From: a bacterium
Lineage (GTDB): Bacteria; Patescibacteriota; Patescibacteriia; 2-12-FULL-60-25
Reading direction: 5' to 3'
Assembly (NCBI GenBank): GCA_021796435.1
Contig: JAJYXM010000016.1
Span: 182,625-246,624 of the forward strand
DNA: 64,000 bases
In this document: positions 19,037 through 61,506 of the stretch, piece by piece
Layout: each line of letters opens with the position of its first letter
Numbering within the stretch: the first letter of the stretch is position 1
Made by a program: the position numbers and the translations under genes
Notes under the pieces: generated by a model
What the model saw: only the letters and a program-made list of their open reading frames with translations
Database searches by the model: none
Told to the model about the DNA's origin: nothing

Positions 19037-19732
19037 TCAGCGGGAGGAGGTGGACGACGGCGTGCCTGTCCCGTAAATCATGGTGATGTGGGTGCGGGCC
19101 GTGACGTCGCGAATGGTCTGCTTGATGCCCTCGACCGTCGCAGGTACTTGGATGGCACTTTCCGGAGGAAAGCCGATGTCGGAGGCAATGGCCTGGCAGG
19201 GGAGTCCGATGCCCCAAAGCGTCAGCTCGGCACCGCTCTCCAGCGCATGGGCGGTGAGACGCTGAAGCGGCGTCTTGAAGTCGACGTCCTCGTATTCTTC
19301 GGACGGTTCATCATGGCCATCCGTGAGCACATCGAACTTGAGTATGACTTCGACGCCCTGCGCTTCCGCCTGAGCCTTGAGCTCAAGTATGCCCTTCAAG
19401 AGCATCAAGATGCTGCCGTAGAGGAGCGTGCTCCTGCCGTCGGCTGCGTACGGTTTCAGTTCCGAAACCTCGGAGAGAGGCTGGGGTACGATGTCGAACC
19501 TCACGCCGTCGGCGAAGGTCGCGACGAACACCAGTGTGTCGGCGGCATTCTCGTTCGTCTTGAGGGACGATAGGTGCTCGTTGACCGCCTGACGAGGCGC
19601 ATCTGCCGGGAACTTGCGCATCGAACCGGAGCGGTCGATGAGCAGCCCACAGATGACCAGCCGCTTGCGGGCCAGGAACTCCGGCGGAACCGTAATCAGC
19701 GAATTGTCCATTGTGCGCTCCTTGCCCCCCAA
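19037..19732 (-). CDS. von Willebrand factor type A (vWA) domain protein
   Basis: Complete MIDAS: DRSGSM (DxSxS), a downstream Thr (RSTLLYG) and TDG. 231 aa with no TM segment. Confidence 0.7.
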   Translation of the reverse strand: MGGKERTMDNSLITVPPEFLARKRLVICGLLIDRSGSMRKFPADAPRQAVNEHLSSLKTNENAADTLVFVATFADGVRFDIVPQPLSEVSELKPYAADGRSTLLYGSILMLLKGILELKAQAEAQGVEVILKFDVLTDGHDEPSEEYEDVDFKTPLQRLTAHALESGAELTLWGIGLPCQAIASDIGFPPESAIQVPATVEGIKQTIRDVTARTHITMIYGTGTPSSTSSR

Positions 19733-19826: not shown

Positions 19827-22073
19827 ATGCATCTCAAGAAGCTCGAACTTCAAGGCTTTAAGACATTCGCCCAGAAAACCGTCTTGGAATTCCTGGGTGA
19901 GGGACAGGGGCGACGTGGAGTGACCGGCGTCGTAGGTCCGAACGGTTCGGGCAAATCCAATATCGCCGATTCTTTGCGTTGGGTGATGGGCGAGCAGAGC
20001 ATGCGCCTGTTGCGCAGCAAGAAGTCCGAAGATGTCATCTTTTCCGGTTCGGCCAAGAAGCCGCGCGCCGGATTCGCGGAAGTCAGCTTGACCATGGTCA
20101 ATGACGGGAATGATGAGATAGATCTGCCGGAGATCGTGATCACACGTCGGCTGTATCGGGATGGCCAATCGGAATATGAGATCAACAAGAAGGCCGTCCG
20201 CATGTCGGATGTCGTCATGCTGTTGGCGCAGTGCGGAGTCGGACAGCGGACTTATAGCGTCATCGGCCAAGGCATGGTCGACGCCGTGTTGTCCGCCAGC
20301 CCTGCAGAGCGCAAAGAATTTTTCGATGAGGCTTCGGGCCTCAAACCTTTCCAGCTGAAACGCCAATCGGCCGTACTGAAACTCGAGGCCACACGCGAGA
20401 ACCTGCAGCAGGCCGAGATGCTGTTACGTGAGATCGAACCGCGGTTGTCCTCGCTCGAGCGGCAGGTGAAAAGATTGAAACAACGTGAAGCCATCGAAGA
20501 GGAATTGCGTGGGTTAGAGAAGGAATACTTCGGCGGAGCCTGGGCGGAGATACGGGAGCGCCTCAGGACTGGGCAGTCCGAAGCAGCCGAAGCCAAGAAG
20601 CTTTTCGCCGAGCGGAATGCGGAAGCCGAGAAGATAGAGCAGGAGCTCGCGGCGTTGGAGAAAGCCACGCCGGTCTCAAGCGAACTGCGCGAAGTCAGGC
20701 AGGGAATCGACGCGCTGAAGGAAGAGAGGGCTAAGTTGCGCGAACGTCAGATCCGTCTGGAATCGCGGCGTGAGGTGGCGAAAGTACAGTCGTCAAAGCC
20801 CTGGTCGCCGCTGCCTTTGTCCAAGATCATAGACAGGATCGAAAAATTGAACTCCAGTCATGATGAGCTGTTGCAGGAATTGGGCAAGGAAGCGCCTGAC
20901 ATGGCGAAGCTCAAGAAGCTGGCGACTGAATTGAAGTCAGCCCACGAATCCTTATTGTCGCAGTTGCAGCAGCCTGCACCCGAAGTCAAAGAGACGCCGC
21001 AGGATCCGGAATTGGAGAAAGAGATGGCGGCATTACTGAAGGATACGGCGGCAGTTTCGGAGAAGATCTTGGCTGCGGAGAAGCAGCTCCAGGAGTTGAA
21101 CGCGAAAGATGACAAGGCTCGTTCGCATCTGTTCGAACTGCAACGTGCTTTGACCGCGAAGCGGCATGATGTGCAACGCGAGGAGCAGAGGTTGTCCGCG
21201 GCGAATGTCGCCCTGGCACGTCATGAGACGCGACGCGATGCTTATCTAGCAGAGTTGAGGCAGCAGGCGCCAGGTCTGGAGGGAGATGTCGAGAAATTGG
21301 CTGACGCGATAAACCAAAGGAAAAATGACGGAGAGCTTGAGGTGATGCGTTCGCGCATACAGCGTCTGCGATCGCAACTCGAGTTCATCGGCGGGATCGA
21401 TCCCGAGACCATCAAAGAACACGAGACGACGAAATTGCGTTTCGACACCTTGAGTACGCAGTCGCTGGATCTACGAGAGGCCATGAAGTCGCTGCAGGTC
21501 GTGTTGGAAGAACTGGACAAGACCATCAAGGAAAGGGGCGATGTGGCTTTCCGGCAGCTCAACCATGAGTTCGGGATTTATTTCAAGAAGCTGTTCAACG
21601 GAGGGGATGCCGAGCTGATCAAGGTCGAGCCAGAGGATGAAGGGGGCGGGGAGGAGACCGGTGAGGGAGAGCAGACCGAAGAGCAAGAAACGACGGCGGC
21701 AAAGCGCGAAGCGACGGGTATCGAAATACATGCCACGCCACCGGGAAAAAGGCTGAAGGCAATAGCTCTACTCTCGGGTGGTGAACGCGCTTTGACCTCG
21801 ATAGCTTTGATTTGTGCCATTATGGCCATCAACCCCTCACCATTCGTGGTGCTTGACGAGGTCGATGCCGCCCTGGATGAGTCGAACTCGCGTAAATTCG
21901 CCGAGATCGTCGATTCATTGTCGGACAATACGCAGTTCATCGTAGTTACCCACAACCGAGCCACTATGGACAAAGCGGATGTACTTTATGGCGTGACCAT
22001 GGGTGATGATGGTGTATCCCAGCTTTTATCGGTTAATTTGGAAGGTCGTGAGGCGACAAAAAACCCTAGATAA
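19827..22073 (+). CDS. smc: chromosome segregation protein SMC, short hinge-less form
   Basis: Canonical SMC N-terminal head (LELQGFKTF...VVGPNGSGKSNI.DSLRWVMGEQS...SEDVIFSGS) and C-terminal head (LSGGERALTSIAL..A......PF.VLDEVDAALDE.N...F......S..TQFIVVTHNR.TM..ADVLYGVTM). The protein is only 748 aa and no hinge motif was found. Confidence 0.85.
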   Translation: MHLKKLELQGFKTFAQKTVLEFLGEGQGRRGVTGVVGPNGSGKSNIADSLRWVMGEQSMRLLRSKKSEDVIFSGSAKKPRAGFAEVSLTMVNDGNDEIDLPEIVITRRLYRDGQSEYEINKKAVRMSDVVMLLAQCGVGQRTYSVIGQGMVDAVLSASPAERKEFFDEASGLKPFQLKRQSAVLKLEATRENLQQAEMLLREIEPRLSSLERQVKRLKQREAIEEELRGLEKEYFGGAWAEIRERLRTGQSEAAEAKKLFAERNAEAEKIEQELAALEKATPVSSELREVRQGIDALKEERAKLRERQIRLESRREVAKVQSSKPWSPLPLSKIIDRIEKLNSSHDELLQELGKEAPDMAKLKKLATELKSAHESLLSQLQQPAPEVKETPQDPELEKEMAALLKDTAAVSEKILAAEKQLQELNAKDDKARSHLFELQRALTAKRHDVQREEQRLSAANVALARHETRRDAYLAELRQQAPGLEGDVEKLADAINQRKNDGELEVMRSRIQRLRSQLEFIGGIDPETIKEHETTKLRFDTLSTQSLDLREAMKSLQVVLEELDKTIKERGDVAFRQLNHEFGIYFKKLFNGGDAELIKVEPEDEGGGEETGEGEQTEEQETTAAKREATGIEIHATPPGKRLKAIALLSGGERALTSIALICAIMAINPSPFVVLDEVDAALDESNSRKFAEIVDSLSDNTQFIVVTHNRATMDKADVLYGVTMGDDGVSQLLSVNLEGREATKNPR

Positions 22074-22486: not shown

Positions 22487-22708
22487 ATGGCTCATCTTAT
22501 GTTGAAGGGAAAAATAATAGCTTTGAACGGGAACATCGCGAACATCCAGACCGCAGACGGGCAGATCCTGAATATCGAAATCGATAACCTCGAAGGTCAG
22601 GCCAAGGAGGGCCAGGAGGTCGCTCTTGTCGCGGCTGTTTTGGGCGGGGAGGAGGCTGGTCGGCAAGAGTTGGCGAGGCATCTCCTCAACGAGCTGTTGA
22701 AAGGGTAG
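22487..22708 (+). CDS. DUF3006-like small protein
   Basis: 74 aa (KGKIIALNGNIANIQTADGQILNIEIDNLEGQAKEGQEVAL) matches the DUF3006 pattern. Sits 11 nt upstream of the VanW gene. The longer ORF starting at 22376 is judged an upstream artefact. Confidence 0.55.
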   Translation: MAHLMLKGKIIALNGNIANIQTADGQILNIEIDNLEGQAKEGQEVALVAAVLGGEEAGRQELARHLLNELLKG

Positions 22709-25953: not shown

Positions 25954-28900
25954 ATGAAAGCACGTAGCGGACCATTAAGCAGCGGAGCAGCGAAAGTTGC
26001 CTTGGGAGGGGTATTGTTGGCGATCGTCGTCTTTGGCTGGCTGCCTCGTGAGGCCAAAGCGATCGTCATCGATCAGAACCCGGCAAACCAGGGTCCGGCG
26101 GCTGCAGGCATGGCAAATCTCGAAGCCTGTATTCAGATAGGCAAAGCCATAGACAGCGGTTCGTATAGTCCGACGGGAGGTTTGGTGACAGAGATCAGCG
26201 CAGTCTATAAGAATGATTGTAACTACACCCAGTTGTTGGAGATGAGGCAGGCGGAAATCGCCGGGCAATGGCAATTCGCCATTACGCGTGCCCTTTTAGG
26301 GACGTTGAATAAATTCACGCAGCAGGTCGGTCAAAACCTTGCCAACTGGGTCTTGGAGGGTGCGCACGGCAACCCTACTTTCTATAAGAAGAATTTTTGG
26401 GGCTTCCTTAAGGATGTGGGCCAAGATTTCACCAACAGATTCATAGATGACGTGGATAAACAATGGGGTTTAGGCTTGTGCCAACCGATCAGTTTGAGCA
26501 TGAAGCTGGGTATCCCGTTCGCACCTCTGCCCATAGACGAACCGGATTGTACTTTGGCTGGCGTAAGGAACGCGTTCGAGCAGACCTATAAGCAGCTTAC
26601 GCCGCACGAATTGGCGAATACGTTCATGGACGCTTTGAGGGACGGAAGGAACAATCCTTTGGAGTTCCAGCTGCGTATCAACAGCATGGCGGTCATCGGA
26701 CGCGAGGAGGCCAAGCAAGGAGCGGCACAACAAAGACAGGAGAACGCCGGAATGAACACCATGACCGTAGGTCCGCTGAGTTCTTCGATCAAGACGCCTG
26801 CCTTGATTGTCCAGCAGACGCTAGATGCACAGAATCCCGCCAAATTGATGAATGAAGTCACGCAGGCCCAGATGACTTCATATGCTTGGGAAGCGATGAC
26901 GGCGGGTCTGCAACAGCTGCCACAGATCGCGGGTATGGCTTTTTTGACTACCTTGGCTGAAGGGGCGTTGAACAAACTGTTGAATTATTGGTTCACGGAT
27001 AATTCCGAGGCGACGACGGATGTCTATCAGATAGACTTGACCAACCCCTATGCCCAGCAGAATGCGCAGCCTAAGACAGGCGATGCGACCAAAAAGATAT
27101 TCACTGACATAATCACACCCAACCTCAGAACTTCTGATGAAGTGAATTTCCTGTCGGAGATGACGGTGTGCGCGGATATGCGAGGTTACTGGAACTGCAC
27201 TTTGGATGAGGCTTTGGCGAATGCGTTGTTGGAAGGCGGTACAAATGGCGGTATTACGGTGCTCAAAGCCGCTGGAATGACGAGCGATAATATTGGGGTA
27301 CAGCCAGTCCTGCATAAGGACTGGGAGCTTATACCTATCACTGAAGCTAAAGATAACCAGGATCCGGGTTGTTTCCAGAGGTCATACTGCGCTTCCAACC
27401 TGGCTAAGCTGCGTTTTGCGCGCATCATCCCGATAGGCTGGGAACTGGCGGCCAATTCCCCTTACAACAAAAAAGTGAACGGCAAATATGTGACTCTTGA
27501 GGCGGTGATCCGCGGGTTCAATGATTGTAACGATTCAGGACAGGCTGACGCGACACATCCGTGGTGCCATCTGATCAATCCGAGTTGGGTCTTGACCGCA
27601 GTTCCGTTCAAATGCCAACTGAAAGGTTACGGGCAGATGTTGATGGCTCCTGGGATGAATGCACGTATCCAGGAGTGCACGGATTTGGTCTCATGCCTGC
27701 AACGAGACGATAAAGGCAATTGTCTGGGGGCTTATGGTTACTGCATGGCGGAAAAGACGGTTTGGCGTTTTGGTGGAGATCAGTGCGACGAAAAATACGT
27801 CAGCTGTAGGACATACACTTCGCGCAGCGACGGTCCTCATCAGGGTGATACATTATCCCTCACGCGAAATACGATAGATTACGGGGCATGTAACCAAGAC
27901 AATATCGGGTGCATGTACTATCTGACCACGCCCGACATAAGCACTTCGACAACGGGCAAATGGGTGGATAAAGCAACAGTCATCAAATCAAACGGCGTGG
28001 TCAAAGGCGCGGATATACACCAGACTCCTCGTGTCTACTTCGATTCGAGCGTGGAGTCTTGCGATGCATCGGGTAACGGTTGCACCAAGGTGCTGAAAGT
28101 GGAGCAGGGCAAACCATCATTAAACCTGATCAAGAACAGCTCGTTCGAGAATGATGATGCAAAGAATCCGGGTAAGCTGGATGGTTGGTTCAAGTTCTTG
28201 GATGGTTCGCCATATCAATATACTGCCTTCTTGGCGGATGTGGGGGATTCTAGCCGCACCGGATCGCGCGGTATCGAGGTCACCGGGTCACCTGACTACA
28301 ATACGGCTCCTTTCCAACAGGTCACGATCTATCCGTTGAGGAATTATGTATTGTCGTTCTACGCCAGGACGAATAATTCCGCGGGAACGCATAAAGCTTC
28401 AGTCAGTTTGGTCTTGAACAGAAATTTCGCGCCAGCTTTATCGCAGTCTTCCTTGGTCGCTCAGGTTGCCGGCCAGACGTATTTCAGGAGCAGCGCATGT
28501 TTGTCCAATATCTCAAGCTTAGCCGTAGGTTTCCCGTCTTTCATCAACTCCAACAACACGGTGAGCGCCGGAAGCAGTCAATTGACCGAAGAATGGCAGA
28601 GGTTCACTTGTGAGTTCGTGTCGAATGCTGACGTCACGGGAGGAAGGATTTTTGTGGGTGGAGCAGGAGCAGCCATCGAAGATGTGCAACTGGAAGAGGG
28701 CGACAAGGCTACGGATTATCTCGAGTCATTATCCAGCGGATTGAAGAGCGAATACCTTAAGTTGCCGCCGGAGGTCTATGGATGTATAGGGGACGACAAG
28801 AGCGATCGGGCAGAGTGTAAAAGCTTCGCTCGGATGTGTTCGCAGGCCGATGCGGGTTGTCAGGGATATACGGATTCTTCAGGCGCCGATCCGACGGAAG

Positions 28901-31900
28901 TGCCAGCCATACTGTCGACCGGTGATTATTGTCCCAGTACCTGCGTCGGATACGCGGAATATCTGAAGATGCCGTCAGCTTTTGATCTGGTGAAGACGGG
29001 CGCGGCGAATCCGGCGACCGATCCTTTGACCGATCCGAATGACGACACGACAGCCAATTTCGTTCCGAAATACGCGGCACAGTGCAGTGCTGATCAGGTG
29101 GGTTGTGAAGCGTTCACCAATCTGGAGGCGGCTGCCGGTGGAGGAGAGGATACCGTGTACTTGACCTATGCACGAGCTTGCCAAAAGCCGAATGATGATT
29201 CCACTACGTATTTCACCTGGGAAGGATCGGAGACGACTGGCTATCAATTGCGAACCTGGAGCCTGATCAAGGAGACGAATCAGACTCTGCCGGCACCGAA
29301 TCTCGTGGGTGCACCGAAGATACTGCGCAAAGCCGGACCTGACGGAATCCTCAAGGATCCCGCGGACTGCGATGAGCAGAGCTGGAAAGACGGAGCAGAT
29401 CTGGATTGTCGCCAGATATACGACGAGAACGGACAGGCTTATTACCGCTATTTCTCGCAGACCATAGTCTCGAGCGCGTCATGCGTGGACTACCGCAAGA
29501 ACAACCAGAATGCGGATGACTGCGTGAAGACGGGTGGGGATTATCGCCAAGCCACGAATGATTGCGTGTATCATATACTCGCCAGCGAAAGCAATACGTG
29601 TACAGCGGCGAATGCCGGTTGTCGCGCATACCTTGGTTCGCGTGGCCGTAATACGGCGAACGTATTCTATGAAGCGTTCAAGGATGCGGCCGGCAACGTG
29701 CCGGTGTATACCGCCCAATCTTCAGTGACGCTCAAGGTCTCGACTGAAGCTCTTTTGGTGGGGGATTACTCATTGAAGATCGACAACAGCAACACGAGCC
29801 AAGCGACGGTGGTGAATGTAGATTTCGATGCGACGACGGGTACGCTCTATACGGTCAGTTTCTGGTATAAGACGACGAACGCTACGGCTAAGACCGTGAC
29901 GATAAATTTGGGCCCGACTGCCGTCGGGACGTTCAAGACGTCGAGCGACTGGAAACGTTTCGAGATCGGACCGTTCAGGGCGACAAAAGGCGGAAAGGCG
30001 ACTTTGAGTTGGACCGGCATGCCGAATACATCTTATCTGGATGAGATAAGCATCCAGCGGTTGCAGGACGTGTCGTATGTGGTCAAGGATTCCTGGACCA
30101 TCCCTGTGGAGTGCGATCAGACGCCGGAAGGCATTCCGCAAGCCCAGGCCATGTTGGGTTGTCGTGAATATCGCGATAGGGACGGAAATAGCGTAACCGT
30201 AAGACAATTCTCGAGGTTGTGTAGATACGATCTGATCGGTTGCAAGGCTTTCATCGACACACGCAATAGCGACGATCCGTATTATCAATCCTTTACCCTG
30301 AAAGGGTTGGCCTATCCTCAAACCGCCAAACCGTGGGACACGTTGTATGCCGGAGACGATCAGGTCTATCGTCCAGCCGACAGATTCGTCTACGCCGTGG
30401 ATGATCCGTCTTTCCGTTGTGACCAGAGCCAGATGTCTTGCAGAGCATTCGGTAAACAGAAGTTCGACAATCTGGGTATCCCGACCTCGACATATGAGAC
30501 GGTGTATCTGAAGGACGACATCACGAAATACGTCGATCAAGGCAATGAACCGCAGATGTTGTGCCGACCGAGCGAACTTTTCTGCGATAAATTCGTCAGC
30601 GGTCCTGTCACTTCGTATTTCCGTGCGCCGTTGCAGCATATATGCGAATGGCAAGATAAGGTGGAATTGGAGGCATCCACCAATCCGTCATATCCAAAGG
30701 GACAATATTCCGGATGGTTCGTGAGAGGTTCATCTCCTCCGCAACCATGCTATCCGGAGAAGCTGAGCGGAGGACAGACTTTCCTTGGCGAGTTCTCGGG
30801 TTCTCCGAATTATCGGGGCACGACTTCGGCTTGTCCGGCTGACCAGTCCGAATGTACGGAATTCCGTGATACGAACGACCATTCCGACCAATCGCACCCG
30901 TTAGGTAAACCGTATTTCTTCATCAACAATAATCTATTAGATAAATCCAGCTGCGGCGGCAAAGTCGATCCTTTGTCAGGTTGTGTGTTGTTCCGTGACA
31001 TGAACGATAGCAGTTTGCCGTTCAGCGCAAAGGCGACTTACGCCAAATCGCATGCCGAGGGGGACAGTGCGACTGATGCGGTGAATTGCGTGAGTGATCC
31101 GAATAATCAGTATTGCAAGAAAGCGGGGACATGTACGGATATAAAACTGATCAGTTGCGCCAAGAACAGCAGTGGGAATAACGGCTATGATTGTTCATCC
31201 GATCCGTACGTGGCGCCATGGTTAAAAACAGTGCCCGGTTCGTCCTGTACTAGCGATGCCGATTGTTCTAATGATACTTCCGACGACCATACGAACGGCT
31301 TCATCGCGACCGGCCGCTGTTCGGTGAACGACTCCAACCTGGTGATCAAGGTAAAGCTGGATCGAGACTGCCAGGCTTGGTTGGGCTGTTCGACGCAAGA
31401 GACGGTGTTCGACCCGGCGCAAGGCAAGTATGTGGATTTGTGCACGGCATTGTCTTTATGCGACCAGTTGAGCGGCGCTACCGACAGCCAGTTCTGTAAT
31501 CACTACATTGACCGAAAATCAGATGCCACACAAGCGGTGATGCGACAAGGACAGTTCTTGGATCAGGCGACATATATAGATCGTCCGGTCACGTTCACGG
31601 ATTGGGATTATTCTGGCTATACCCTGCCTAACCATTATCAGATACCGGATATACAAAGCCGCCGCATGGCTTTCGAGCTGATGAATAAACGACTGGGTGA
31701 TTTGCAGCCTGGTTTGACCAAAGAATATCGTGACGTGGCAGCGGTGCCATTCAATAAAGCCAAGACGATCACTGATTTGAAGTTCAGCTATCTTAATTTG
31801 TGCCAAGTCGATCAGACAGGCGTCGTCGGATATTACATACCGAAGGCTTCTGGCAGCCCGGATTATTGTTATGTCGCGATCGACAAGGCCTATTCGCAGT

Positions 31901-34900
31901 TGCTTTTGGCCAACGTCAATGAAAGGAACGTACAGAGCGTATCCACGGCTTTCTCGCAGAATGCGCAGGTAAAGGACGATCCGACCTTGGCGCAAGCTTT
32001 TCCGGGTTCGACTTGTCGTGCATATCCGGATGCAGCTTCGCCATACCCGAATAAGTTCGTGTCCGAGTGGGATTACGTGAAGGATCCGCCGCAACCTACA
32101 CAGTATCTTTCGGGTTTTGAAGGTGTAGCGCTATGCGCATACGGTGAGGACTGCGATTGCAGCTATAGGCGTCTGTCTTATGGCGGAGTGTATAAATACT
32201 ACGCGCCATATAGCGGCGTAACTCCGTCGGGCGTGTGTGTCGGTGGCAGCCGTAACGGCGAATCGTGCACACCGGGCGCTACGGGCGGGCAGGGCGAAAG
32301 CTCAAGCACCACGACATCTTCAGGCAATTCGGAGTATGCCGGTAACGATTGCGGAATGGGAGGAGCCTGCAGCGAGCTGCAGTCAAGCTCCTTGATCCGT
32401 GGCATCTTCGGTAACTGCCTGCAGTATGATTATTCGAGGACGCTGGGTAATACCCAGGATATGCATCCGTGCTTGGTCTGGAGTCCGACACCGGTGCTGC
32501 AAGGCGAGCAGGACGTGTATCATTACCAGCCGACTGCAGGATACCTGCCGCCGATGAATTCAGGCCAGTATTATTGCTTGTCCAGCGCCAAGGAACCAAG
32601 GGTTTTGAAGGCACAGGTGCCGAATCAGTTGACCAATTGGGAGTTCAGTTTCAAAGGTGCGGCTGGAGGCGCTATAACAACGGCGCAGGCGCCACCCGAC
32701 AGGCCGGGTTACATAGTCGCCAAAGCCCCAGGTAAGATGAGTTTCTTCTGGTATCATGAATGTTTCGTACAGGATCCGGCTGCGATTTCAGACAGCAATG
32801 TGCCTTTACCCTTCAGCTTACCTAAGGAAGGTGCGCTGATAGGTTCGGGTGATTATAAGAATTGGTACGAAAATAATTGCGGCTGGGGCGCCACATTGGA
32901 CGGGGCTGCTGTCCGTGGTACGGATAGCGGAGCGGCATGCGGAAGCGTGCGTCAGGGTTTTGGCGCACAGGCATATGCGGAAGATACGCAGGCAGGACGT
33001 TGGGTCACGACAGGACAAGGCAAGAACAAGAATTATGCCGAATATTTCGTCGAGTTCAACGACAAGACTTGGACTGAATGGCTGCTGAATAAAGCCGTTC
33101 CCACTACGGATGAAATCGCAAAAGCCTCACTTGAGAATAATTTCACCTATTTCGACTTCCGCCCGATGTATAAGACGGGTGCCGGAGGGACCTGGTCGTG
33201 CGGCCAGTCCGGTTGGTGGGTGGATGAGTTCCCGACGGAAGGCGGAACGGCAGGAGTGGATAAGGCCGGGAATGAGATCGTGAAGCGTGAATTGGCGGAT
33301 ATGAAACGCCTGACTCCGCAGGGCGCTGGTTTCCTGAAGAACGAAGATGGTTCGCATCTTTTGAGGCTGCCGTGTAAAGACAAGACGCATTCGGATCCAA
33401 CAAACGGTGACGGCTACTGCTATTACAAGTATTGGGAAATGGATTTCCATGCGGATGGCCAGACGAAGTTCCGGAGATTCAACGAATCAATCGGCGGACC
33501 GAGAGAGCTTAAATCGGACGACGTGTTCTATGCAGAAAGCGAAGGCGGAAAACCGTATTTCGCCATCCGTGCCATGTTCGAGGATACTGTTCCGGAAGAT
33601 AACCTGCTTGATGAAGACATGTCGGATCCTTCGGGCAGCCAATTGGCCGGTCCGTTCAAGTTCGTCGGTTGGTGGGTGACGGCTAGTTTCCCTGGAGCTA
33701 CGAATGCGCGATATATCTACATGTATATGGATGTGGGTCACGCCGATATCTGCAAGGAAGTGGGCAGCGTGGCCTCGGATAACGGAGGGGACACTGCAGC
33801 CTTCACGGATCGCGTGTGGGATCAGGGCACATATGCCATACCCAGCTTGGGCTTTAACGTCGGTACGACCAATAATCCATTCGGTGCCGCGAAACATACC
33901 AAGCAGATAGGTGCGGAACCCCTCATCATGTCCGGTACATTGGACAAGACGGCATACAAAGTCGGCGTAAATAAGCCTACATTCCTTTCGTCCGGTGCTG
34001 AATATTTCCGTTTGGGTGATGCGCCAACAGGCAATTGGGCATGGCTAAGCGATATCTTCGCTAAGATATACAAGATATACCGTTGGAACGAACAACCGGT
34101 CACCAAGACGAGCTGGGCTTGCGTCGCAGGACCGAGACAAGGCGAACGTTGTCCGGATTTGACCACGTACTACGATAAGACCAAGAAAGATGCTTTCAAC
34201 AATAACGCGTGCAATCCGTTGTTGGATAAGAGCTGCACGGGTGGTTTCGCGATCTGGGATCAAGGCGCAACTTCTTCGGCTAAATATTGTGGCTATCAGG
34301 GTAATTGCAATCCGGAGCTGATAGACATACGCGATCCGAGCTTGGCTTTCTGTAATTCATTGTCCGGAGTCAATGCTGGCCTGGCTTGCGGGCCGGGTGG
34401 TGGGGTCAATATCGGTCAATATGATGTGTGCCACGCTGGTCCGGTCAAGAGCGTAAACGGCAAACTGACTCCACAGTTCACGTCATGCGGCATGAGCGAT
34501 TATTGGGAGCAACTGGCGGATACGAATCTTTACTCCTTGAAGGACGATGCCTGTGCGGGTTTGACCGGTACTAAATTGACCCAATGTACTGCCGAAATAG
34601 CAGCGATAACGAAGGATTGCACGGATAATAGCTTTACGGATCAGAACGGAAGCCCCTGTAAACATCTGGTCCGTAGCAGCGCGGCACAAGTCGGAGCTTT
34701 CTGGTGCGCGAATGACGGTGTGCTTTTCCCTGACGCAACGCCAGCCTGGTGCCGTAAGCCAAGCGGAGGAAAACCCTCGACGGATTGTCCGGTGCAAGTT
34801 GTCGGAAGCTGTGGATCGAACGGTTACTGTACGAACGAAGGTTACGAACACGTTCGTTGCACATCAGGGGGTGAATGCTCTTTCACATGGAAGAATTGGT

Positions 34901-37050
34901 GGTACAACGATATGAGCAAGCCATCAGGTATGCCAGATAAACCCATGCCGTATCCAGCAAGGCATGCGACATTTGACAACTGGAATGATACGTTGTCGGT
35001 AGCTTTAAAGGATTGGGCCTATGGGGACTACACAACGTGGCCGACGAGCGGTTCAGTGAATGTTAATTATCCATTGGGAGGTCATGCTATCGATAGCGGG
35101 GCATTTACCTTCGGTGTATATCCGAGGTGGATGACTGGAGGTATTAATAATGGTCTCGATGGGTATAAGGGCACTGATGGGCAGGATGCGACCAGGGATA
35201 TAGGTGGTAAGGATTTCGCTTATACCACCGATAGTCCAATCTATACTAGATATTATATTCAGAAGCCGGGTTCAATCGGTGAGGCTGCCTCACGTTTTCC
35301 TGGAACGTATATTATTGCTTCTGTGACTAAGGTAGGTAGTACCAGTATCACCGAAGGTTCGAATAATGTCTTTATACCTGGGCATTGTGAAAGGTTGCCG
35401 GTCGATCCCACCTCCTGTACCGAATATAGTGATATCGGAAATAAAGATACTGACGGTTGTTATGAGGATAAGGGGCCCTATGATGTTCCTTATTTCAGCC
35501 AGACAAACGGAGGTACTAGATGGATTGGTCCGGTAACTAAGCCGGGCATCTGCGAACTTGGCGCCAAAGAAGGCAGCTTCTGTCTGGATAACCAAGACTG
35601 CAAACCGGCCTGGGTGACGGATGACCAACAATGGATCGCTTCATTCATGTGCCAACCTGTCACGAATGTGAGCGGACAGTCGAGCAGCGGTACGTTACCT
35701 GATTACAAGACGGCGACTGGCCCGAGCTTCGATTGCAATGATCTAGAGGGTGATCCGAATTCGACTGATCTCGATAAGGACAACAACTCCTGTACGCATA
35801 AGGCCGGATACCAGCCGCGCGTGGATTTGTGCGGGTTGGATCCGAAACGCACGGAGTGTCTGACAGGCGTGGCGCAACGCGATAATCCGACGAGCGGCGG
35901 TTATATAGCTTCGTATGACGCCAAGAACGGATTGCCTCCAACGGATGTCACGGCTGGATTGCATCTTCCGACTTATCTGGCGGAACAGAACGGACAACCT
36001 CAAGCTGACTACGCATCCGATTTCACTTACATCTCTTACTATGCGCCGAAGCCACCGCGGATAGCTGCGCCGGACACGAATCAGCAATGTGCGGCAGCGG
36101 GTCAGTGTCCGATCGCGGCGGTCGATGCCTTCAACTTGGAGGGGACGACCGAGGGCAAGGTAGCTTACGTGGGCGGGCAGGCTATCGTGACCATGCGTTT
36201 CTACGCCTGGGCGGCGGATAATCAGATGGGTCTGAAGGAAATGACTATCGATTGGGGCGATGGTACGCAGCAGAAGTTGGATGATGTGCGCATGAAGAAC
36301 AAGAAGCCCTTCTGCGGCGTGAGCAAGGAGTGCGAGTTCGTGCCAGGCCTGACCTGCAGTTCGGATAACGATTGTCCGCCAGCGGCTGGCAGGTGTGCCG
36401 ATACGGGAGTATGTAACCGCAAGCCGGAGGTCTCGTGTCACACTGACCAGGATTGCAGGGCCGGTTCGACAGACGATGATACCTGTAATATCCGTGTCGG
36501 ATTCGGATCAAGCAACGATGCATGCGAACAGAACTATTTCGAATTCACGCACGTCTATACCTGTGACAAGACGCAGCAAGCTGACACGACTTACGCCTGT
36601 TTGACCGCGGGGGGACGTTGTTCGAATGACAATACGCGTATTTGTGGAGGCGCCTTCAAATGCATCGCTGGTGACACCTGCATACAGAATATGGCACAAC
36701 CTGGTGGTTGCTTCGACGCGACGAATGCCGCATGTCGATATACGCCACGCATCCTGATCAAGGATAATTGGGGTTGGTGTACTGGAGAGTGTCGAGTGCA
36801 GGATTTGGGTGGCGGTAAGCTTGGCTTGGGCTTCAAAGACGCGGATGGTGTAGCGCGGAACAACATCCTATTGCCGAATGGCGGATGCTATGACGCCAGT
36901 GGAATCTATCTGAATACTAATCCAACATTGCCATTGAATGTCGCGCAGTCGCAAGACAAGACGAACATGTGCAATCCGGATAACAGCGGGTCGTTCTACA
37001 GGCCATGGATCGTGTTCAAAGGCGCGCTACAGTTGGGAGTAGCGCCATAG
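25954..37050 (+). CDS. giant cysteine-rich cell-surface protein (3698 aa) with CBM-like and PKD-like segments
   Basis: Uninterrupted 11.1-kb ORF with an N-terminal signal-anchor (LGGVLLAIVVFGWLP). Two segments resemble galactose-binding-like / CBM4_9 modules (NLIKNSSFENDD...GKLDGWFKF... and ...YSLKIDNSN...WKRFEIGPF...). A PKD-like motif (IDWGDGT) and many paired Cys (about 190) are present. Confidence 0.85.
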   Translation: MKARSGPLSSGAAKVALGGVLLAIVVFGWLPREAKAIVIDQNPANQGPAAAGMANLEACIQIGKAIDSGSYSPTGGLVTEISAVYKNDCNYTQLLEMRQAEIAGQWQFAITRALLGTLNKFTQQVGQNLANWVLEGAHGNPTFYKKNFWGFLKDVGQDFTNRFIDDVDKQWGLGLCQPISLSMKLGIPFAPLPIDEPDCTLAGVRNAFEQTYKQLTPHELANTFMDALRDGRNNPLEFQLRINSMAVIGREEAKQGAAQQRQENAGMNTMTVGPLSSSIKTPALIVQQTLDAQNPAKLMNEVTQAQMTSYAWEAMTAGLQQLPQIAGMAFLTTLAEGALNKLLNYWFTDNSEATTDVYQIDLTNPYAQQNAQPKTGDATKKIFTDIITPNLRTSDEVNFLSEMTVCADMRGYWNCTLDEALANALLEGGTNGGITVLKAAGMTSDNIGVQPVLHKDWELIPITEAKDNQDPGCFQRSYCASNLAKLRFARIIPIGWELAANSPYNKKVNGKYVTLEAVIRGFNDCNDSGQADATHPWCHLINPSWVLTAVPFKCQLKGYGQMLMAPGMNARIQECTDLVSCLQRDDKGNCLGAYGYCMAEKTVWRFGGDQCDEKYVSCRTYTSRSDGPHQGDTLSLTRNTIDYGACNQDNIGCMYYLTTPDISTSTTGKWVDKATVIKSNGVVKGADIHQTPRVYFDSSVESCDASGNGCTKVLKVEQGKPSLNLIKNSSFENDDAKNPGKLDGWFKFLDGSPYQYTAFLADVGDSSRTGSRGIEVTGSPDYNTAPFQQVTIYPLRNYVLSFYARTNNSAGTHKASVSLVLNRNFAPALSQSSLVAQVAGQTYFRSSACLSNISSLAVGFPSFINSNNTVSAGSSQLTEEWQRFTCEFVSNADVTGGRIFVGGAGAAIEDVQLEEGDKATDYLESLSSGLKSEYLKLPPEVYGCIGDDKSDRAECKSFARMCSQADAGCQGYTDSSGADPTEVPAILSTGDYCPSTCVGYAEYLKMPSAFDLVKTGAANPATDPLTDPNDDTTANFVPKYAAQCSADQVGCEAFTNLEAAAGGGEDTVYLTYARACQKPNDDSTTYFTWEGSETTGYQLRTWSLIKETNQTLPAPNLVGAPKILRKAGPDGILKDPADCDEQSWKDGADLDCRQIYDENGQAYYRYFSQTIVSSASCVDYRKNNQNADDCVKTGGDYRQATNDCVYHILASESNTCTAANAGCRAYLGSRGRNTANVFYEAFKDAAGNVPVYTAQSSVTLKVSTEALLVGDYSLKIDNSNTSQATVVNVDFDATTGTLYTVSFWYKTTNATAKTVTINLGPTAVGTFKTSSDWKRFEIGPFRATKGGKATLSWTGMPNTSYLDEISIQRLQDVSYVVKDSWTIPVECDQTPEGIPQAQAMLGCREYRDRDGNSVTVRQFSRLCRYDLIGCKAFIDTRNSDDPYYQSFTLKGLAYPQTAKPWDTLYAGDDQVYRPADRFVYAVDDPSFRCDQSQMSCRAFGKQKFDNLGIPTSTYETVYLKDDITKYVDQGNEPQMLCRPSELFCDKFVSGPVTSYFRAPLQHICEWQDKVELEASTNPSYPKGQYSGWFVRGSSPPQPCYPEKLSGGQTFLGEFSGSPNYRGTTSACPADQSECTEFRDTNDHSDQSHPLGKPYFFINNNLLDKSSCGGKVDPLSGCVLFRDMNDSSLPFSAKATYAKSHAEGDSATDAVNCVSDPNNQYCKKAGTCTDIKLISCAKNSSGNNGYDCSSDPYVAPWLKTVPGSSCTSDADCSNDTSDDHTNGFIATGRCSVNDSNLVIKVKLDRDCQAWLGCSTQETVFDPAQGKYVDLCTALSLCDQLSGATDSQFCNHYIDRKSDATQAVMRQGQFLDQATYIDRPVTFTDWDYSGYTLPNHYQIPDIQSRRMAFELMNKRLGDLQPGLTKEYRDVAAVPFNKAKTITDLKFSYLNLCQVDQTGVVGYYIPKASGSPDYCYVAIDKAYSQLLLANVNERNVQSVSTAFSQNAQVKDDPTLAQAFPGSTCRAYPDAASPYPNKFVSEWDYVKDPPQPTQYLSGFEGVALCAYGEDCDCSYRRLSYGGVYKYYAPYSGVTPSGVCVGGSRNGESCTPGATGGQGESSSTTTSSGNSEYAGNDCGMGGACSELQSSSLIRGIFGNCLQYDYSRTLGNTQDMHPCLVWSPTPVLQGEQDVYHYQPTAGYLPPMNSGQYYCLSSAKEPRVLKAQVPNQLTNWEFSFKGAAGGAITTAQAPPDRPGYIVAKAPGKMSFFWYHECFVQDPAAISDSNVPLPFSLPKEGALIGSGDYKNWYENNCGWGATLDGAAVRGTDSGAACGSVRQGFGAQAYAEDTQAGRWVTTGQGKNKNYAEYFVEFNDKTWTEWLLNKAVPTTDEIAKASLENNFTYFDFRPMYKTGAGGTWSCGQSGWWVDEFPTEGGTAGVDKAGNEIVKRELADMKRLTPQGAGFLKNEDGSHLLRLPCKDKTHSDPTNGDGYCYYKYWEMDFHADGQTKFRRFNESIGGPRELKSDDVFYAESEGGKPYFAIRAMFEDTVPEDNLLDEDMSDPSGSQLAGPFKFVGWWVTASFPGATNARYIYMYMDVGHADICKEVGSVASDNGGDTAAFTDRVWDQGTYAIPSLGFNVGTTNNPFGAAKHTKQIGAEPLIMSGTLDKTAYKVGVNKPTFLSSGAEYFRLGDAPTGNWAWLSDIFAKIYKIYRWNEQPVTKTSWACVAGPRQGERCPDLTTYYDKTKKDAFNNNACNPLLDKSCTGGFAIWDQGATSSAKYCGYQGNCNPELIDIRDPSLAFCNSLSGVNAGLACGPGGGVNIGQYDVCHAGPVKSVNGKLTPQFTSCGMSDYWEQLADTNLYSLKDDACAGLTGTKLTQCTAEIAAITKDCTDNSFTDQNGSPCKHLVRSSAAQVGAFWCANDGVLFPDATPAWCRKPSGGKPSTDCPVQVVGSCGSNGYCTNEGYEHVRCTSGGECSFTWKNWWYNDMSKPSGMPDKPMPYPARHATFDNWNDTLSVALKDWAYGDYTTWPTSGSVNVNYPLGGHAIDSGAFTFGVYPRWMTGGINNGLDGYKGTDGQDATRDIGGKDFAYTTDSPIYTRYYIQKPGSIGEAASRFPGTYIIASVTKVGSTSITEGSNNVFIPGHCERLPVDPTSCTEYSDIGNKDTDGCYEDKGPYDVPYFSQTNGGTRWIGPVTKPGICELGAKEGSFCLDNQDCKPAWVTDDQQWIASFMCQPVTNVSGQSSSGTLPDYKTATGPSFDCNDLEGDPNSTDLDKDNNSCTHKAGYQPRVDLCGLDPKRTECLTGVAQRDNPTSGGYIASYDAKNGLPPTDVTAGLHLPTYLAEQNGQPQADYASDFTYISYYAPKPPRIAAPDTNQQCAAAGQCPIAAVDAFNLEGTTEGKVAYVGGQAIVTMRFYAWAADNQMGLKEMTIDWGDGTQQKLDDVRMKNKKPFCGVSKECEFVPGLTCSSDNDCPPAAGRCADTGVCNRKPEVSCHTDQDCRAGSTDDDTCNIRVGFGSSNDACEQNYFEFTHVYTCDKTQQADTTYACLTAGGRCSNDNTRICGGAFKCIAGDTCIQNMAQPGGCFDATNAACRYTPRILIKDNWGWCTGECRVQDLGGGKLGLGFKDADGVARNNILLPNGGCYDASGIYLNTNPTLPLNVAQSQDKTNMCNPDNSGSFYRPWIVFKGALQLGVAP

Positions 37051-51596: not shown

Positions 51597-53104
<1,508 letters not shown>

Positions 53105-56461: not shown

Positions 56462-56528
56462 ATAACAAAACATCCTCTTGCGAGGATGTTTTGCATGGTG
56501 GACGGCAGAGGAGTCGAACCTCTGACCT
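56462..56528. repeat. direct repeat copy B (hairpin plus tRNA-Val 3' portion)
   Basis: See copy A. This copy continues into the intact tRNA-Val. Confidence 0.75.
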
Positions 56529-56572
56529 TCACAATGTCAATGTGACGCTCTAACCAACTGAGCTAGCCGTCC
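56496..56572 (-). tRNA. tRNA-Val (anticodon GAC), CCA-encoded
   Basis: The minus strand reads GGACGGCTAGCTCAGTTGGTTAGAGCGTCACATTGACATTGTGAAGGTCAGAGGTTCGACTCCTCTGCCGTCCACCA. Cloverleaf has a 7-bp acceptor, D-arm, anticodon loop TTGACAT and T-loop TTCGACT. Confidence 0.85.
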
Positions 56573-61461: not shown

Positions 61462-61492
61462 TTGTAATCAAAATCCGCCCTGGTGGCGGATT
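61462..61492 (+). terminator. intrinsic terminator after valS
   Basis: aaaatccgcc-ctggtg-gcggatttt followed by gtgtt. Confidence 0.55.
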
Positions 61493-61506
61493 TTGTGTTA
61501 AAAAAT

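What the first reader, a model, noticed from the sequence alone, without database searches (positions are those of the whole stretch)
19827..22073. Hinge-less 748-aa SMC with fully canonical head domains
The N-terminal Walker A head and the C-terminal signature/Walker B/D-loop head match canonical SMC almost residue for residue. The protein is roughly 440 aa shorter than typical SMC, and I could not find a hinge-domain motif in the middle. The central region appears to be a continuous coiled coil. A minimal SMC without a dimerisation hinge would need another way to dimerise.
Basis: partly seen in the sequence, partly recalled or inferred. Interest (0 to 1): 0.5.

Follow-up and report, generated by a model that had tools for sequence, protein, structure and literature searches.

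The report
Hinge-less short SMC of Patescibacteria
This gene encodes a real chromosome-organising SMC ATPase whose usual dimerising 'hinge' has been replaced by a tiny two-helix cap on half-length arms; this form is shared by many ultra-small (CPR/Patescibacteria) bacteria, making them a natural test of what the hinge is for.

Summary
ORF 19827-22073 (+) encodes a 748-aa protein. Its head halves score above NCBI's SMC equivalog cut-off and carry all the ATPase motifs. No hinge is detectable by Pfam at E<=10, by a local hinge HMM with positive controls, or by profile-profile comparison (1.4%).

It is not an artefact. More than 120 close homologues and 59 diverse cluster representatives are 700-800 aa and hinge-less, and an independent ortholog shows strong purifying selection (pN/pS 0.06).

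The centre is not a continuous coiled coil. Proline-rich linkers (317-330, 380-397) bracket a helix-turn-helix cap (331-379), usually 52-54 aa, that sits exactly where hinge-bearing Patescibacteria relatives (~1015 aa) have the hinge. The cap also occurs in hinge-less classes of ~890 and ~1040-1090 aa. Arms are about 150 aa per strand, against 341 in Bacillus subtilis.

Best reading: this is the lineage's Smc ortholog with the hinge swapped for a minimal apex module. How, or whether, it dimerises at the apex is inferred, not shown. ScpA/ScpB were not found in the window, which says nothing about the rest of the genome.

A hinge-less SMC clade was reported in 2025 for ocean Actinobacteria. I found no report for Patescibacteria. 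Verdict: new variant of a known kind, interest 0.6.

The parts
19827..22073 (+). smc-like gene, 748 codons plus stop
   Evidence: ORF list. TIGR02168 625.7 bits, above the 567.35 cut-off. A 93%-identical, colinear 748-aa ortholog lies in the same gene order in L001.
19827..20336 (+). N-terminal half of the ABC-type head (aa 1-170), including the Q-loop at aa 146-149
   Evidence: 49% identity to the Bs Smc head N half. PDB matches 5xg3/3zgx. Foldseek top hits are Smc heads.
19935..19958 (+). Walker A, GPNGSGKS (aa 37-44)
   Evidence: Motif position. Invariant in A1; in A2, G37, N39, G40, G42, K43 and S44 are invariant and P38 and S41 nearly invariant.
20337..20774 (+). N-terminal strand of the coiled-coil arm (aa 171-316), with a short break at 279-283
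   Evidence: AF2 helices 173-278 and 284-316. 3-4 spaced conserved hydrophobic columns. The head-proximal part (173-235) is highly conserved.
20775..20816 (+). Proline-rich linker 1 (aa 317-330, ...KPWSPLPL)
   Evidence: AF2 non-helical with low pLDDT. P325, P328 and P330. W326, P328 and L329 are invariant in the close family. W326 aligns with the conserved W of an arm break in longer relatives.
20817..20963 (+). Apex helix-turn-helix cap (aa 331-379: helix 331-352, turn 353-358 with P357, helix 359-379); occupies the hinge position
   Evidence: AF2. Alignment with hinge-bearing relatives. The aligned block 329-380 is mostly 52-54 aa. Homologous to the centre of the ~890-aa class (hhalign 96%, E 2.5e-9, against nulls of 2e-4 or worse). 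pN/pS 0.079 for aa 317-397.
20964..21017 (+). Proline-rich linker 2 (aa 380-397, LQQPAPEVKETPQDPE)
   Evidence: AF2 non-helical. P383, P385, P391 and P394. L380, Q381, A384, P385 and E386 are invariant in the close family.
21018..21461 (+). C-terminal strand of the coiled-coil arm (aa 398-545), with breaks at about 481-500 (joint-like)
   Evidence: AF2 helices 398-480, 488-495, 501-522 and 527-590. Residues 514-604 align to the Bs Smc head-proximal coiled coil. Its length matches the N strand (148 against 146 aa).
21462..22070 (+). C-terminal half of the head (aa 546-748), with a variable acidic insert at about 601-628
   Evidence: 58% identity to the Bs Smc C head over aa 630-740. pLDDT below 50 for 605-626.
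21771..21785 (+). Signature (C) motif LSGGE (aa 649-653)
   Evidence: Invariant in A1 and A2.
21846..21878 (+). Walker B plus D-loop, VVLDEVDAALD (aa 674-684)
   Evidence: In A1, V675-D684 are invariant and V674 nearly invariant. In A2, D677, E678, D680, A681, L683 and D684 are invariant and L676, V679 and A682 nearly invariant.

Best explanation
The gene encodes the Smc (condensin-type) ATPase of a Patescibacteria bacterium related to Uhrbacteria. In this lineage the hinge domain has been replaced by a minimal helix-turn-helix cap.

Fold. Each polypeptide folds back on itself. Residues 1-170 and 546-748 form a complete ABC head. Residues 171-316 and 398-545 form an antiparallel coiled-coil arm of about 150 residues per strand (about 22 nm, less than half the B. 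subtilis arm). The tip is the 331-379 hairpin, tied to the arm by two proline-rich linkers.

Shown:
- SMC identity of the heads, with intact catalytic motifs.
- Absence of any hinge.
- Position, length conservation and purifying selection of the cap.
- Lineage-wide distribution in discrete length classes.

Inferred:
- The protein still works as an ATP-driven SMC. Two heads engage on ATP and are presumably bridged by a kleisin encoded elsewhere in the genome.
- The two arms are held together at the far end by cap-cap association, probably a four-helix bundle. That would do the one job of the hinge that engineering experiments indicate can be done by another dimerisation module.
For: Identity:
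- TIGR02168 scores 625.7 bits, above its cut-off. RecN and Rad50 models score below 50 bits against cut-offs above 400.
- PDB sequence and Foldseek top hits are prokaryotic Smc heads, including head-plus-joint and ScpA-bound structures. Rad50 appears only at rank 26.
- All motifs are present and conserved.

Hinge absent:
- Pfam gives no hinge hit in any of the 59 sequences of the short-class alignment A2, which includes the query.
- A local hinge HMM detects 47 of 47 SMCs of 1025 aa or more and 0 of 17 genome-derived SMCs of 723-924 aa.
- Among the query plus its 150 nearest representatives, the hinge is absent from 0/59 (700-800 aa), 0/70 (801-930 aa) and 0/9 (>1036 aa), and present in 10/10 of the 995-1035-aa class.
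- hhalign of the cap against the hinge gives 1.4%.

Cap:
- It sits exactly at the hinge position in alignments with hinge-bearing relatives.
- It is shared with the ~890 and ~1040-1090-aa classes.
- Its length is mostly 52-54 aa.
- Conserved apolar doublets widen its hydrophobic face: 32-36% hydrophobic columns in helix 1 against 17-24% in the arms.
- pN/pS is 0.079.

Orthology:
- Housekeeping context in the window (gyrA, clpP, rbfA).
- smc lies beside rpsP-khpA-trmD in hinge-less L002 and beside rpsP-khpA in hinge-bearing L006.
- Named members fall in sibling candidate phyla that carry one form or the other.

Plausibility:
- The B. subtilis hinge can be replaced functionally by the Rad50 zinc hook.
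- Arm lengths are quantised, with modes at 238 and 163 aa that match the ~230- and ~150-aa arms seen here (PMC5344682).
Against: - No ScpA or ScpB was found in the 64-kb window, in 10 kb beyond its end, or within 10 kb of smc in about 25 Patescibacteria loci. These regions cover only a small fraction of each genome, so this is uninformative rather than negative.
- Cap dimerisation is not tested. The hydrophobic enrichment is modest. The invariant WSPLPL and QxPAPE motifs are limited to the close subfamily, and the wider short class has no invariant central residue.
- AF2 confidence in the linkers is below 50, and I could not inspect model coordinates.
- I could not exclude a second, hinge-bearing smc elsewhere in the same genome.
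- The head-domain NJ tree is star-like and needs at least 6 hinge gains or losses, so a single replacement event is not established.
Confidence: 0.7

Rival explanations
1. The same protein and the same orthology, but there is no apex dimerisation. The cap merely closes the coiled coil. Protomers are joined only at the heads, by the ATP sandwich and a kleisin, possibly helped by side-by-side arm contacts. The complex would be an open clamp rather than a closed long ring.
For: The cap sequence is poorly conserved across the wider short class, with no invariant central residue in A2. Only one clear 3-4 hydrophobic seam per helix is visible. The profile of the element matches only generic helical bundles.
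Against: Cap length is tightly conserved at 52-54 aa and the cap is under purifying selection. Apolar doublets exceed what a two-helix hairpin needs. From my own knowledge, not tested here: all characterised long-armed SMC-like proteins (Smc, MukB, Rad50/SbcC, RecN) dimerise at the arm tip.
Confidence: 0.2
2. An accessory SMC-like paralog, for example a defence- or repair-associated ATPase such as MADS mad3, Lamassu LmuB or a RecN-like protein, that coexists with a canonical Smc encoded elsewhere.
For: PADLOC mad3 gives E 1.4e-58 on the head halves and LmuB gives E 1e-15. Most NCBI records name relatives only 'AAA family ATPase'. A second smc in the genome could not be excluded.
Against: The score exceeds the SMC equivalog cut-off and is far above RecN and Rad50. 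The mad3 hit is 197 bits against 626 bits for SMC and covers head segments only. The neighbours are housekeeping genes with conserved synteny and no defence genes. No assembly appeared twice among the SMC loci of the genome scan. Hinge-bearing and hinge-less forms are colinear apart from the hinge.
Confidence: 0.07
3. A highly divergent hinge is present but undetected, or the gene is truncated or mis-assembled.
For: A 7-residue resemblance between PLPLSKI (aa 328-334) and the hinge motif FLPLTKI (hhalign P = 0.037).
Against: Only about 50 residues lie between the proline-rich linkers, against about 170 for a hinge. AF2 predicts all-helical structure there. hhalign probability is 1.4%. Hundreds of independent contigs carry the same architecture. 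The independent ortholog has 79% DNA and 93% protein identity at identical length.
Confidence: 0.03

Closest known systems
Bacterial Smc of the Smc-ScpAB complex (B. subtilis type; NCBIfam TIGR02168)
   Same: Head sequence and fold, all ATPase motifs, a conserved head-proximal coiled coil (neck/joint), fold-back antiparallel arm topology, and a housekeeping genomic context.
   Different: No hinge domain. Arms are about 150 aa per strand instead of 341. The tip is a helix-turn-helix cap with proline-rich linkers. ScpA/ScpB partners have not been located.
Hinge-bearing Patescibacteria Smc of about 995-1039 aa (e.g. P0234, P0257 Magasanikbacteria, L022, L055)
   Same: 37-42% identical and colinear through heads and arms, including the conserved W-containing arm break. 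Similar neighbourhood.
   Different: They carry a canonical hinge (PF06470, E 9e-26) and about 70 more coiled-coil residues per strand.
'Hinge-less' SMC clade from ocean metagenomes placed near Actinobacteria (Sussfeld et al. 2025, PMC12153180)
   Same: SMC-type heads and a coiled coil with neither a hinge nor a CxxC zinc hook. The authors interpret it as hinge loss within SMC, not as Rad50/SbcC.
   Different: A different lineage and habitat. That paper describes no replacement apex element and no length classes.
Engineered B. subtilis Smc with the Rad50 zinc hook in place of the hinge, and Mini-Smc constructs (Burmann et al. 2017, PMC5344682)
   Same: They show that an Smc can work with a non-hinge dimeriser and with shortened arms of permitted lengths. 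The arm-length modes (163 and 238 aa) resemble the arms here.
   Different: Those constructs are artificial, and their dimeriser is a Zn-coordinating CxxC hook. This protein has no Cys in residues 171-545.
Rad50/SbcC and RecN (hinge-less SMC-like repair ATPases)
   Same: An ABC head plus a fold-back coiled coil without an SMC hinge.
   Different: The heads are much closer to Smc: Rad50 models score 44-48 bits and RecN 38 bits, against 626 bits for SMC. There is no zinc hook.

Membership tests
Smc (chromosome segregation protein SMC, TIGR02168 / Smc-ScpAB) | Score above the curated equivalog cut-off | tested here: met
   625.7 bits against 567.35.
Smc (chromosome segregation protein SMC, TIGR02168 / Smc-ScpAB) | Bipartite ABC head with Walker A, Q-loop, signature motif, Walker B, D-loop and H-loop | tested here: met
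   All motifs located and invariant or nearly invariant in the family. Foldseek top hits are Smc heads.
Smc (chromosome segregation protein SMC, TIGR02168 / Smc-ScpAB) | Long intramolecular antiparallel coiled-coil arm | tested here: met
   AF2 predicts long helices 173-316 and 398-590, and the strand lengths match. Heptad-like hydrophobic spacing. The arm is only about 150 aa per strand. Strand pairing itself was not inspected because no coordinates were available.
Smc (chromosome segregation protein SMC, TIGR02168 / Smc-ScpAB) | Central hinge dimerisation domain (PF06470) | tested here: not met
   No hit at E<=10. None of the 59 sequences in the short-class alignment has one. hhalign 1.4%. 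Positive controls were detected.
Smc (chromosome segregation protein SMC, TIGR02168 / Smc-ScpAB) | Kleisin ScpA and kite ScpB encoded in the genome | not testable with these tools
   None in the window or the fetched flanks. The rest of the roughly 1-Mb genome could not be read.
Smc (chromosome segregation protein SMC, TIGR02168 / Smc-ScpAB) | Single-copy housekeeping gene in a conserved neighbourhood | tested here: inconclusive
   Housekeeping context and rpsP-khpA linkage in relatives. Copy number per genome was not determinable.
Rad50/SbcC | CxxC zinc hook at the coiled-coil apex | tested here: not met
   No Cys in residues 171-545.
Rad50/SbcC | Family profile score | tested here: not met
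   44-48 bits against cut-offs of 700-1087.
RecN | TIGR00634 score above cut-off | tested here: not met
   37.8 bits against 407.85.
Archaea-specific SMC-related proteins (NF045487) | Family profile score | tested here: not met
   59.4 bits against 300.
Defence-system SMC-like ATPases (MADS mad3, Lamassu LmuB, Wadjet JetC) | Profile match together with the partner genes of the system nearby | tested here: not met
   mad3 scores 197 bits on head halves only. The neighbours are rbfA, a DHH phosphoesterase, clpP, gyrA, a VanW protein and hsp20.

The most novel reading that the evidence does not exclude
A large part of the Patescibacteria radiation (lineages labelled Uhr-, Buchanan-, Falkow- and Azambacteria, among others) organises its chromosome with SMC proteins that have no hinge at all. 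The hinge is replaced by a two-helix cap of about 52 aa on arms of quantised length (about 150, 220 or 300 aa).

Together with the ocean actinobacterial clade and a Chloroflexota-like case (L053), this would mean the hinge is recurrently dispensable in nature, perhaps particularly in small genomes. Its proposed roles as a DNA gate, a DNA-binding site or an obstacle-bypass gate would then not be part of the core SMC mechanism.
Probability: 0.45. Interest if true: 0.75.

Novelty: new variant of a known kind. Interest (0 to 1): 0.6.

Why it matters
What the SMC hinge does beyond dimerisation (DNA entry or exit gate, DNA binding, obstacle bypass) is still debated, and it has been probed mainly with engineered proteins. 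A whole natural radiation of hinge-less Smc orthologs, next to hinge-bearing sister lineages, offers several things:

- **A ready-made comparative system.** It can show which partners, loading factors and arm lengths change when the hinge is lost.
- **A candidate minimal dimerisation module** of about 52 aa.
- **Compact SMCs** (748 aa, arms of about 22 nm) that may be easier to handle for structural work.

It also affects annotation. Most of these proteins are currently labelled only 'AAA family ATPase'.

Tried and rejected
- **Assembly artefact or truncation.** Rejected: many independent contigs and genomes have the same length and the gene is under purifying selection.
- **Cryptic hinge.** Rejected by Pfam at E<=10, a local HMM with controls, and hhalign. 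The 7-aa PLPLSKI/FLPLTKI resemblance is kept only as a curiosity.
- **Zinc hook.** Rejected: no Cys in the arms.
- **ScpA/ScpB search.** I ran Pfam on about 45 window ORFs, a motif scan (validated on the ScpA of L027), and phmmer with that ScpA against all ORFs of the window and 87 loci. Nothing was found in Patescibacteria DNA. These regions are too small to be informative.
- **TrmB-type wHTH proteins and small ORFs next to smc as divergent kleisin/kite.** Pfam shows ordinary regulators.
- **Defence-system reading (PADLOC mad3, LmuB).** Rejected on score and context.
- **Head-domain NJ tree to count hinge losses.** The backbone is unresolved and needs at least 6 changes, so no conclusion is drawn.
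- **Profile of the cap against the PDB.** Only generic or de novo helical bundles matched, which also shows that E-values for such helical profiles are inflated. I therefore added null controls for the hhalign result.
- **AFDB structural neighbour search.** The library was unavailable.
- **Look-up of the window's RpoC.** Not on record.
- **Literature.** Eight searches found no report of hinge-less SMC in Patescibacteria/CPR.
Full report
**1. What is there**

The window carries an intact ORF at 19827-22073 (+) of 748 codons. It lies in a housekeeping stretch of a Patescibacteria chromosome:
- Upstream: rpoB/rpoC, ruvC, gyrA, clpP, rbfA.
- Downstream: a VanW protein, hsp20, a 3698-aa giant ORF, nusA, yidC, groEL, prfA, a lone 16S rRNA gene and valS.

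The closest protein is 93% identical and also 748 aa. It sits in the same gene order on a 1.24-Mb contig of a 'Patescibacteria group bacterium'. Relatives at about 70% identity are labelled Candidatus Uhrbacteria.

**2. The heads are Smc heads**

- Pfam SMC_N spans residues 2-731.
- NCBIfam TIGR02168 (SMC_prok_B) scores 625.7 bits against a cut-off of 567.35. RecN, Rad50 and the archaeal SMC-related family score 38-59 bits against cut-offs of 300-1087.
- The best solved-structure matches are B. subtilis, Geobacillus and Pyrococcus Smc heads, by sequence (E 1e-97) and by Foldseek on an AlphaFold2 model (E 1e-29 to 1e-21; Rad50 first appears at rank 26).
- Walker A (37-44), Q-loop (146-149), signature LSGGE (649-653), Walker B/D-loop (674-684) and H-loop (707-710) are present. 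They are invariant or nearly invariant in the family.
- Identity to the Bs Smc head is 45-49% (N half) and 58% (C half). That is canonical, but not 'residue for residue'.

**3. There is no hinge, and this is not an artefact**

- PF06470 is absent at E<=10 from the whole protein and from its isolated centre. The control P0234 gives E 9e-26.
- None of the 59 sequences of the short-class alignment (37-55% identical to the query) has a hinge.
- A hinge HMM built from hinge-bearing relatives finds a hinge in 47/47 SMCs of 1025 aa or more from Firmicutes, Chloroflexota and Patescibacteria genomes. It finds none in 17 genome-derived SMCs of 723-924 aa.
- Profile-profile comparison of the query's central segment with the hinge gives 1.4% probability.
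- The window gene and its ortholog in L001 are 79% identical in DNA and 93% in protein. pN/pS is 0.06 overall and 0.08 for residues 317-397.

**4. What replaces the hinge**

The AF2 model has mean pLDDT 77. It predicts:

| Residues | Feature |
|---|---|
| 173-278, 284-316 | helices of the N strand of the arm |
| 317-330 | low-confidence loop |
| 331-352, 359-379 | two short helices, pLDDT 73-84 |
| 380-397 | second loop |
| 398-590 | long helices of the C strand, running into the head |

Prolines mark these borders: 325/328/330, 357 at the turn, and 383/385/391/394. Residues 171-545 contain no cysteine, so there is no zinc hook.

In the close family the linkers are the best-conserved part of the arm. 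W326, P328, L329, L331, I334, L380, Q381, A384, P385 and E386 are invariant.

An L-INS-i alignment with longer relatives shows that the helix-turn-helix block occupies exactly the position of the hinge in hinge-bearing Patescibacteria Smc proteins of about 1000 aa. Across 97 short-class sequences the block is mostly 52-54 aa.

The block is homologous to the centre of the ~890-aa class: hhalign 96%, E 2.5e-9 over 62 columns. Controls against non-equivalent arm segments or the reversed sequence give E 2e-4 to 5e-2. An HMM built from the centre of the ~890-aa class also matches the centre of the 1039-1092-aa hinge-less class.

**5. A family in discrete sizes**

I classed the query plus its 150 nearest 50%-identity cluster representatives by length and hinge content:

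| Length class (aa) | n | With hinge |
|---|---|---|
| 700-800 | 59 | 0 |
| 801-930 | 70 | 0 |
| 995-1035 | 10 | 10 |
| 1039-1092 | 9 | 0 |

(The three remaining sequences are under 700 aa.)

The arithmetic fits a simple history:
- About 1015 aa, minus a 175-aa hinge, plus the cap of about 55 aa, gives about 895 aa.
- The 750-aa class additionally lacks about 70 residues on each strand next to the cap.
- The longest class has about 90 more residues per strand.

The resulting arms are about 150, 220-230 and 300 aa. They resemble the quantised arm-length modes (163, 238 and 341 aa) reported by Burmann et al. 2017 (PMC5344682).

Named members are Uhr-, Buchanan- and Azambacteria (short), Falkowbacteria (long hinge-less), and Magasanik- and some Buchananbacteria (hinge-bearing).

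A head-domain NJ tree puts all Patescibacteria sequences in one clade, sister to Chloroflexota. Its backbone is star-like, and parsimony needs at least 6 changes. I therefore cannot say how many times the hinge was lost.

**6. Orthology versus paralogy**

Three observations favour orthologous replacement:
- The hinge-less gene of L002 lies beside rpsP-khpA-trmD, and the hinge-bearing gene of L006 beside rpsP-khpA, the classical smc neighbourhood.
- Context around the window gene is conserved in two further genomes.
- No assembly appears twice in the (truncated) genome scan.

A second smc elsewhere in the genome could not be excluded with the tools available.

PADLOC's mad3 hit (197 bits, head halves only) and the LmuB hit reflect shared ABC-head features. 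There are no defence genes nearby.

**7. Partners**

No ScpA or ScpB was found by any of these searches:
- Pfam on about 45 window ORFs.
- A motif scan that did recover a true ScpA in an Anaerolineaceae locus.
- phmmer with that ScpA against all ORFs of the window and 87 loci.
- The 10 kb beyond the window's end.

 These regions cover only a few per cent of a genome of about 1 Mb, so the question stays open.

The head-proximal coiled coil (173-235 and 514-590), where ScpA's N domain binds in B. subtilis (3zgx, among the top structural hits), is much better conserved than the distal arm. This is consistent with a retained kleisin, but it is only indirect evidence.

**8. Mechanism**

Shown: a complete, selected Smc ATPase head on a short fold-back arm capped by a conserved-length helical hairpin.

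Inferred: ATP-driven head engagement with a kleisin, as in Smc-ScpAB, and association of two caps, probably as a four-helix bundle, to close the far end. Support for cap-cap association comes from:
- The cap's position and its length conservation.
- Purifying selection on the cap.
- Apolar doublets (I334/I335, L348/L349, L365/A366, L376/L377) that give 32-36% hydrophobic columns in helix 1 and 24-33% in helix 2, against 17-24% in the arms.
- The precedent that the B. subtilis hinge can be swapped for a Rad50 zinc hook.

The main rival is that the cap only terminates the coiled coil and the protomers are joined at the heads alone. I rate this at about 0.2.

**9. Comparison with what is known, and novelty**

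Eight full-text searches found no description of hinge-less SMC in Patescibacteria/CPR.

Sussfeld et al. 2025 (PMC12153180) reported a 'hinge-less' SMC clade in ocean metagenomes near Actinobacteria and called it new biology. They described no replacement element or length classes.

The present case is therefore a new variant of a known kind. It is an Smc by its heads and context but fails the hinge criterion. It appears to be the common form in a large part of a major bacterial radiation. One further hinge-less SMC (881 aa, L053) groups with Chloroflexota heads, which hints at recurrent loss.

**10. Verdict**

- Confidence in 'Smc ortholog with the hinge replaced by a helical cap': 0.7. The apex-dimer step is inferred.
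- Interest: 0.6.

Noticed in passing
window 25954-37050 (+): A giant 3698-aa Cys-rich ORF directly downstream of a TSP3-repeat protein. It is conserved in relatives (3685 aa in L001, 3766 aa in L004) and has only a faint CBM_4_9 Pfam signal. It is probably a giant surface protein of the kind common in CPR genomes.
   Followed up: no
window 51598-53103 (+): A complete 16S rRNA gene standing alone. No 23S or 5S gene was found anywhere in the window, including the 11 kb downstream, so the rRNA genes are unlinked. One tRNA-Val(GAC) lies at 56496-56572 (-).
   Followed up: partly
window ~22490-22708 (+); L001 12675-12884; L004 13450-13659: A small ORF of about 69 aa is conserved immediately downstream of smc in three genomes. 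It has no family hit and is too small to be a kleisin.
   Followed up: partly
L053 10001-12625 (DAOUAL010000053.1, MAG labelled Anaerolineae): An 881-aa SMC without a hinge whose head domains group with Chloroflexota SMCs rather than with the Patescibacteria clade in the NJ tree. This is either an independent hinge loss or a mis-binned contig.
   Followed up: partly
window 20808-20828 (aa 328-334): PLPLSKI resembles the conserved hinge motif FLPLTKI of hinge-bearing relatives (hhalign P = 0.037 over 7 residues). It could be a vestige of the hinge or chance.
   Followed up: partly
L002 7948-8736 (-); L006 21299-22087 (-); L087 17259-17359 (+): A protein of about 260 aa with an N-terminal TrmB/MarR-type winged helix recurs within about 2-10 kb of smc in two Patescibacteria loci, and about 10 kb beyond this window's end. 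Pfam gives no ScpA/ScpB signal.
   Followed up: yes
window 19037-19732 (-): A divergently transcribed 231-aa protein next to smc has a weak vWA-like signal (a DxSGS-type motif; VWA_2 at E 0.09). It is present in L001 but absent from L004, so it is not a conserved partner.
   Followed up: partly
window 61483-63027 (+): A 514-aa protein combining a partial thymidylate-synthase-like domain with a C-terminal PterinBD-DUF4346 domain.
   Followed up: no
L007, L009, L013, L017, L020, L023, L033 (record titles): Several MAGs that carry Patescibacteria-type hinge-less SMC genes (up to 60% identical to the query) are titled 'uncultured Gammaproteobacteria bacterium' in their records. The taxon labels are probably wrong.
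   Followed up: no
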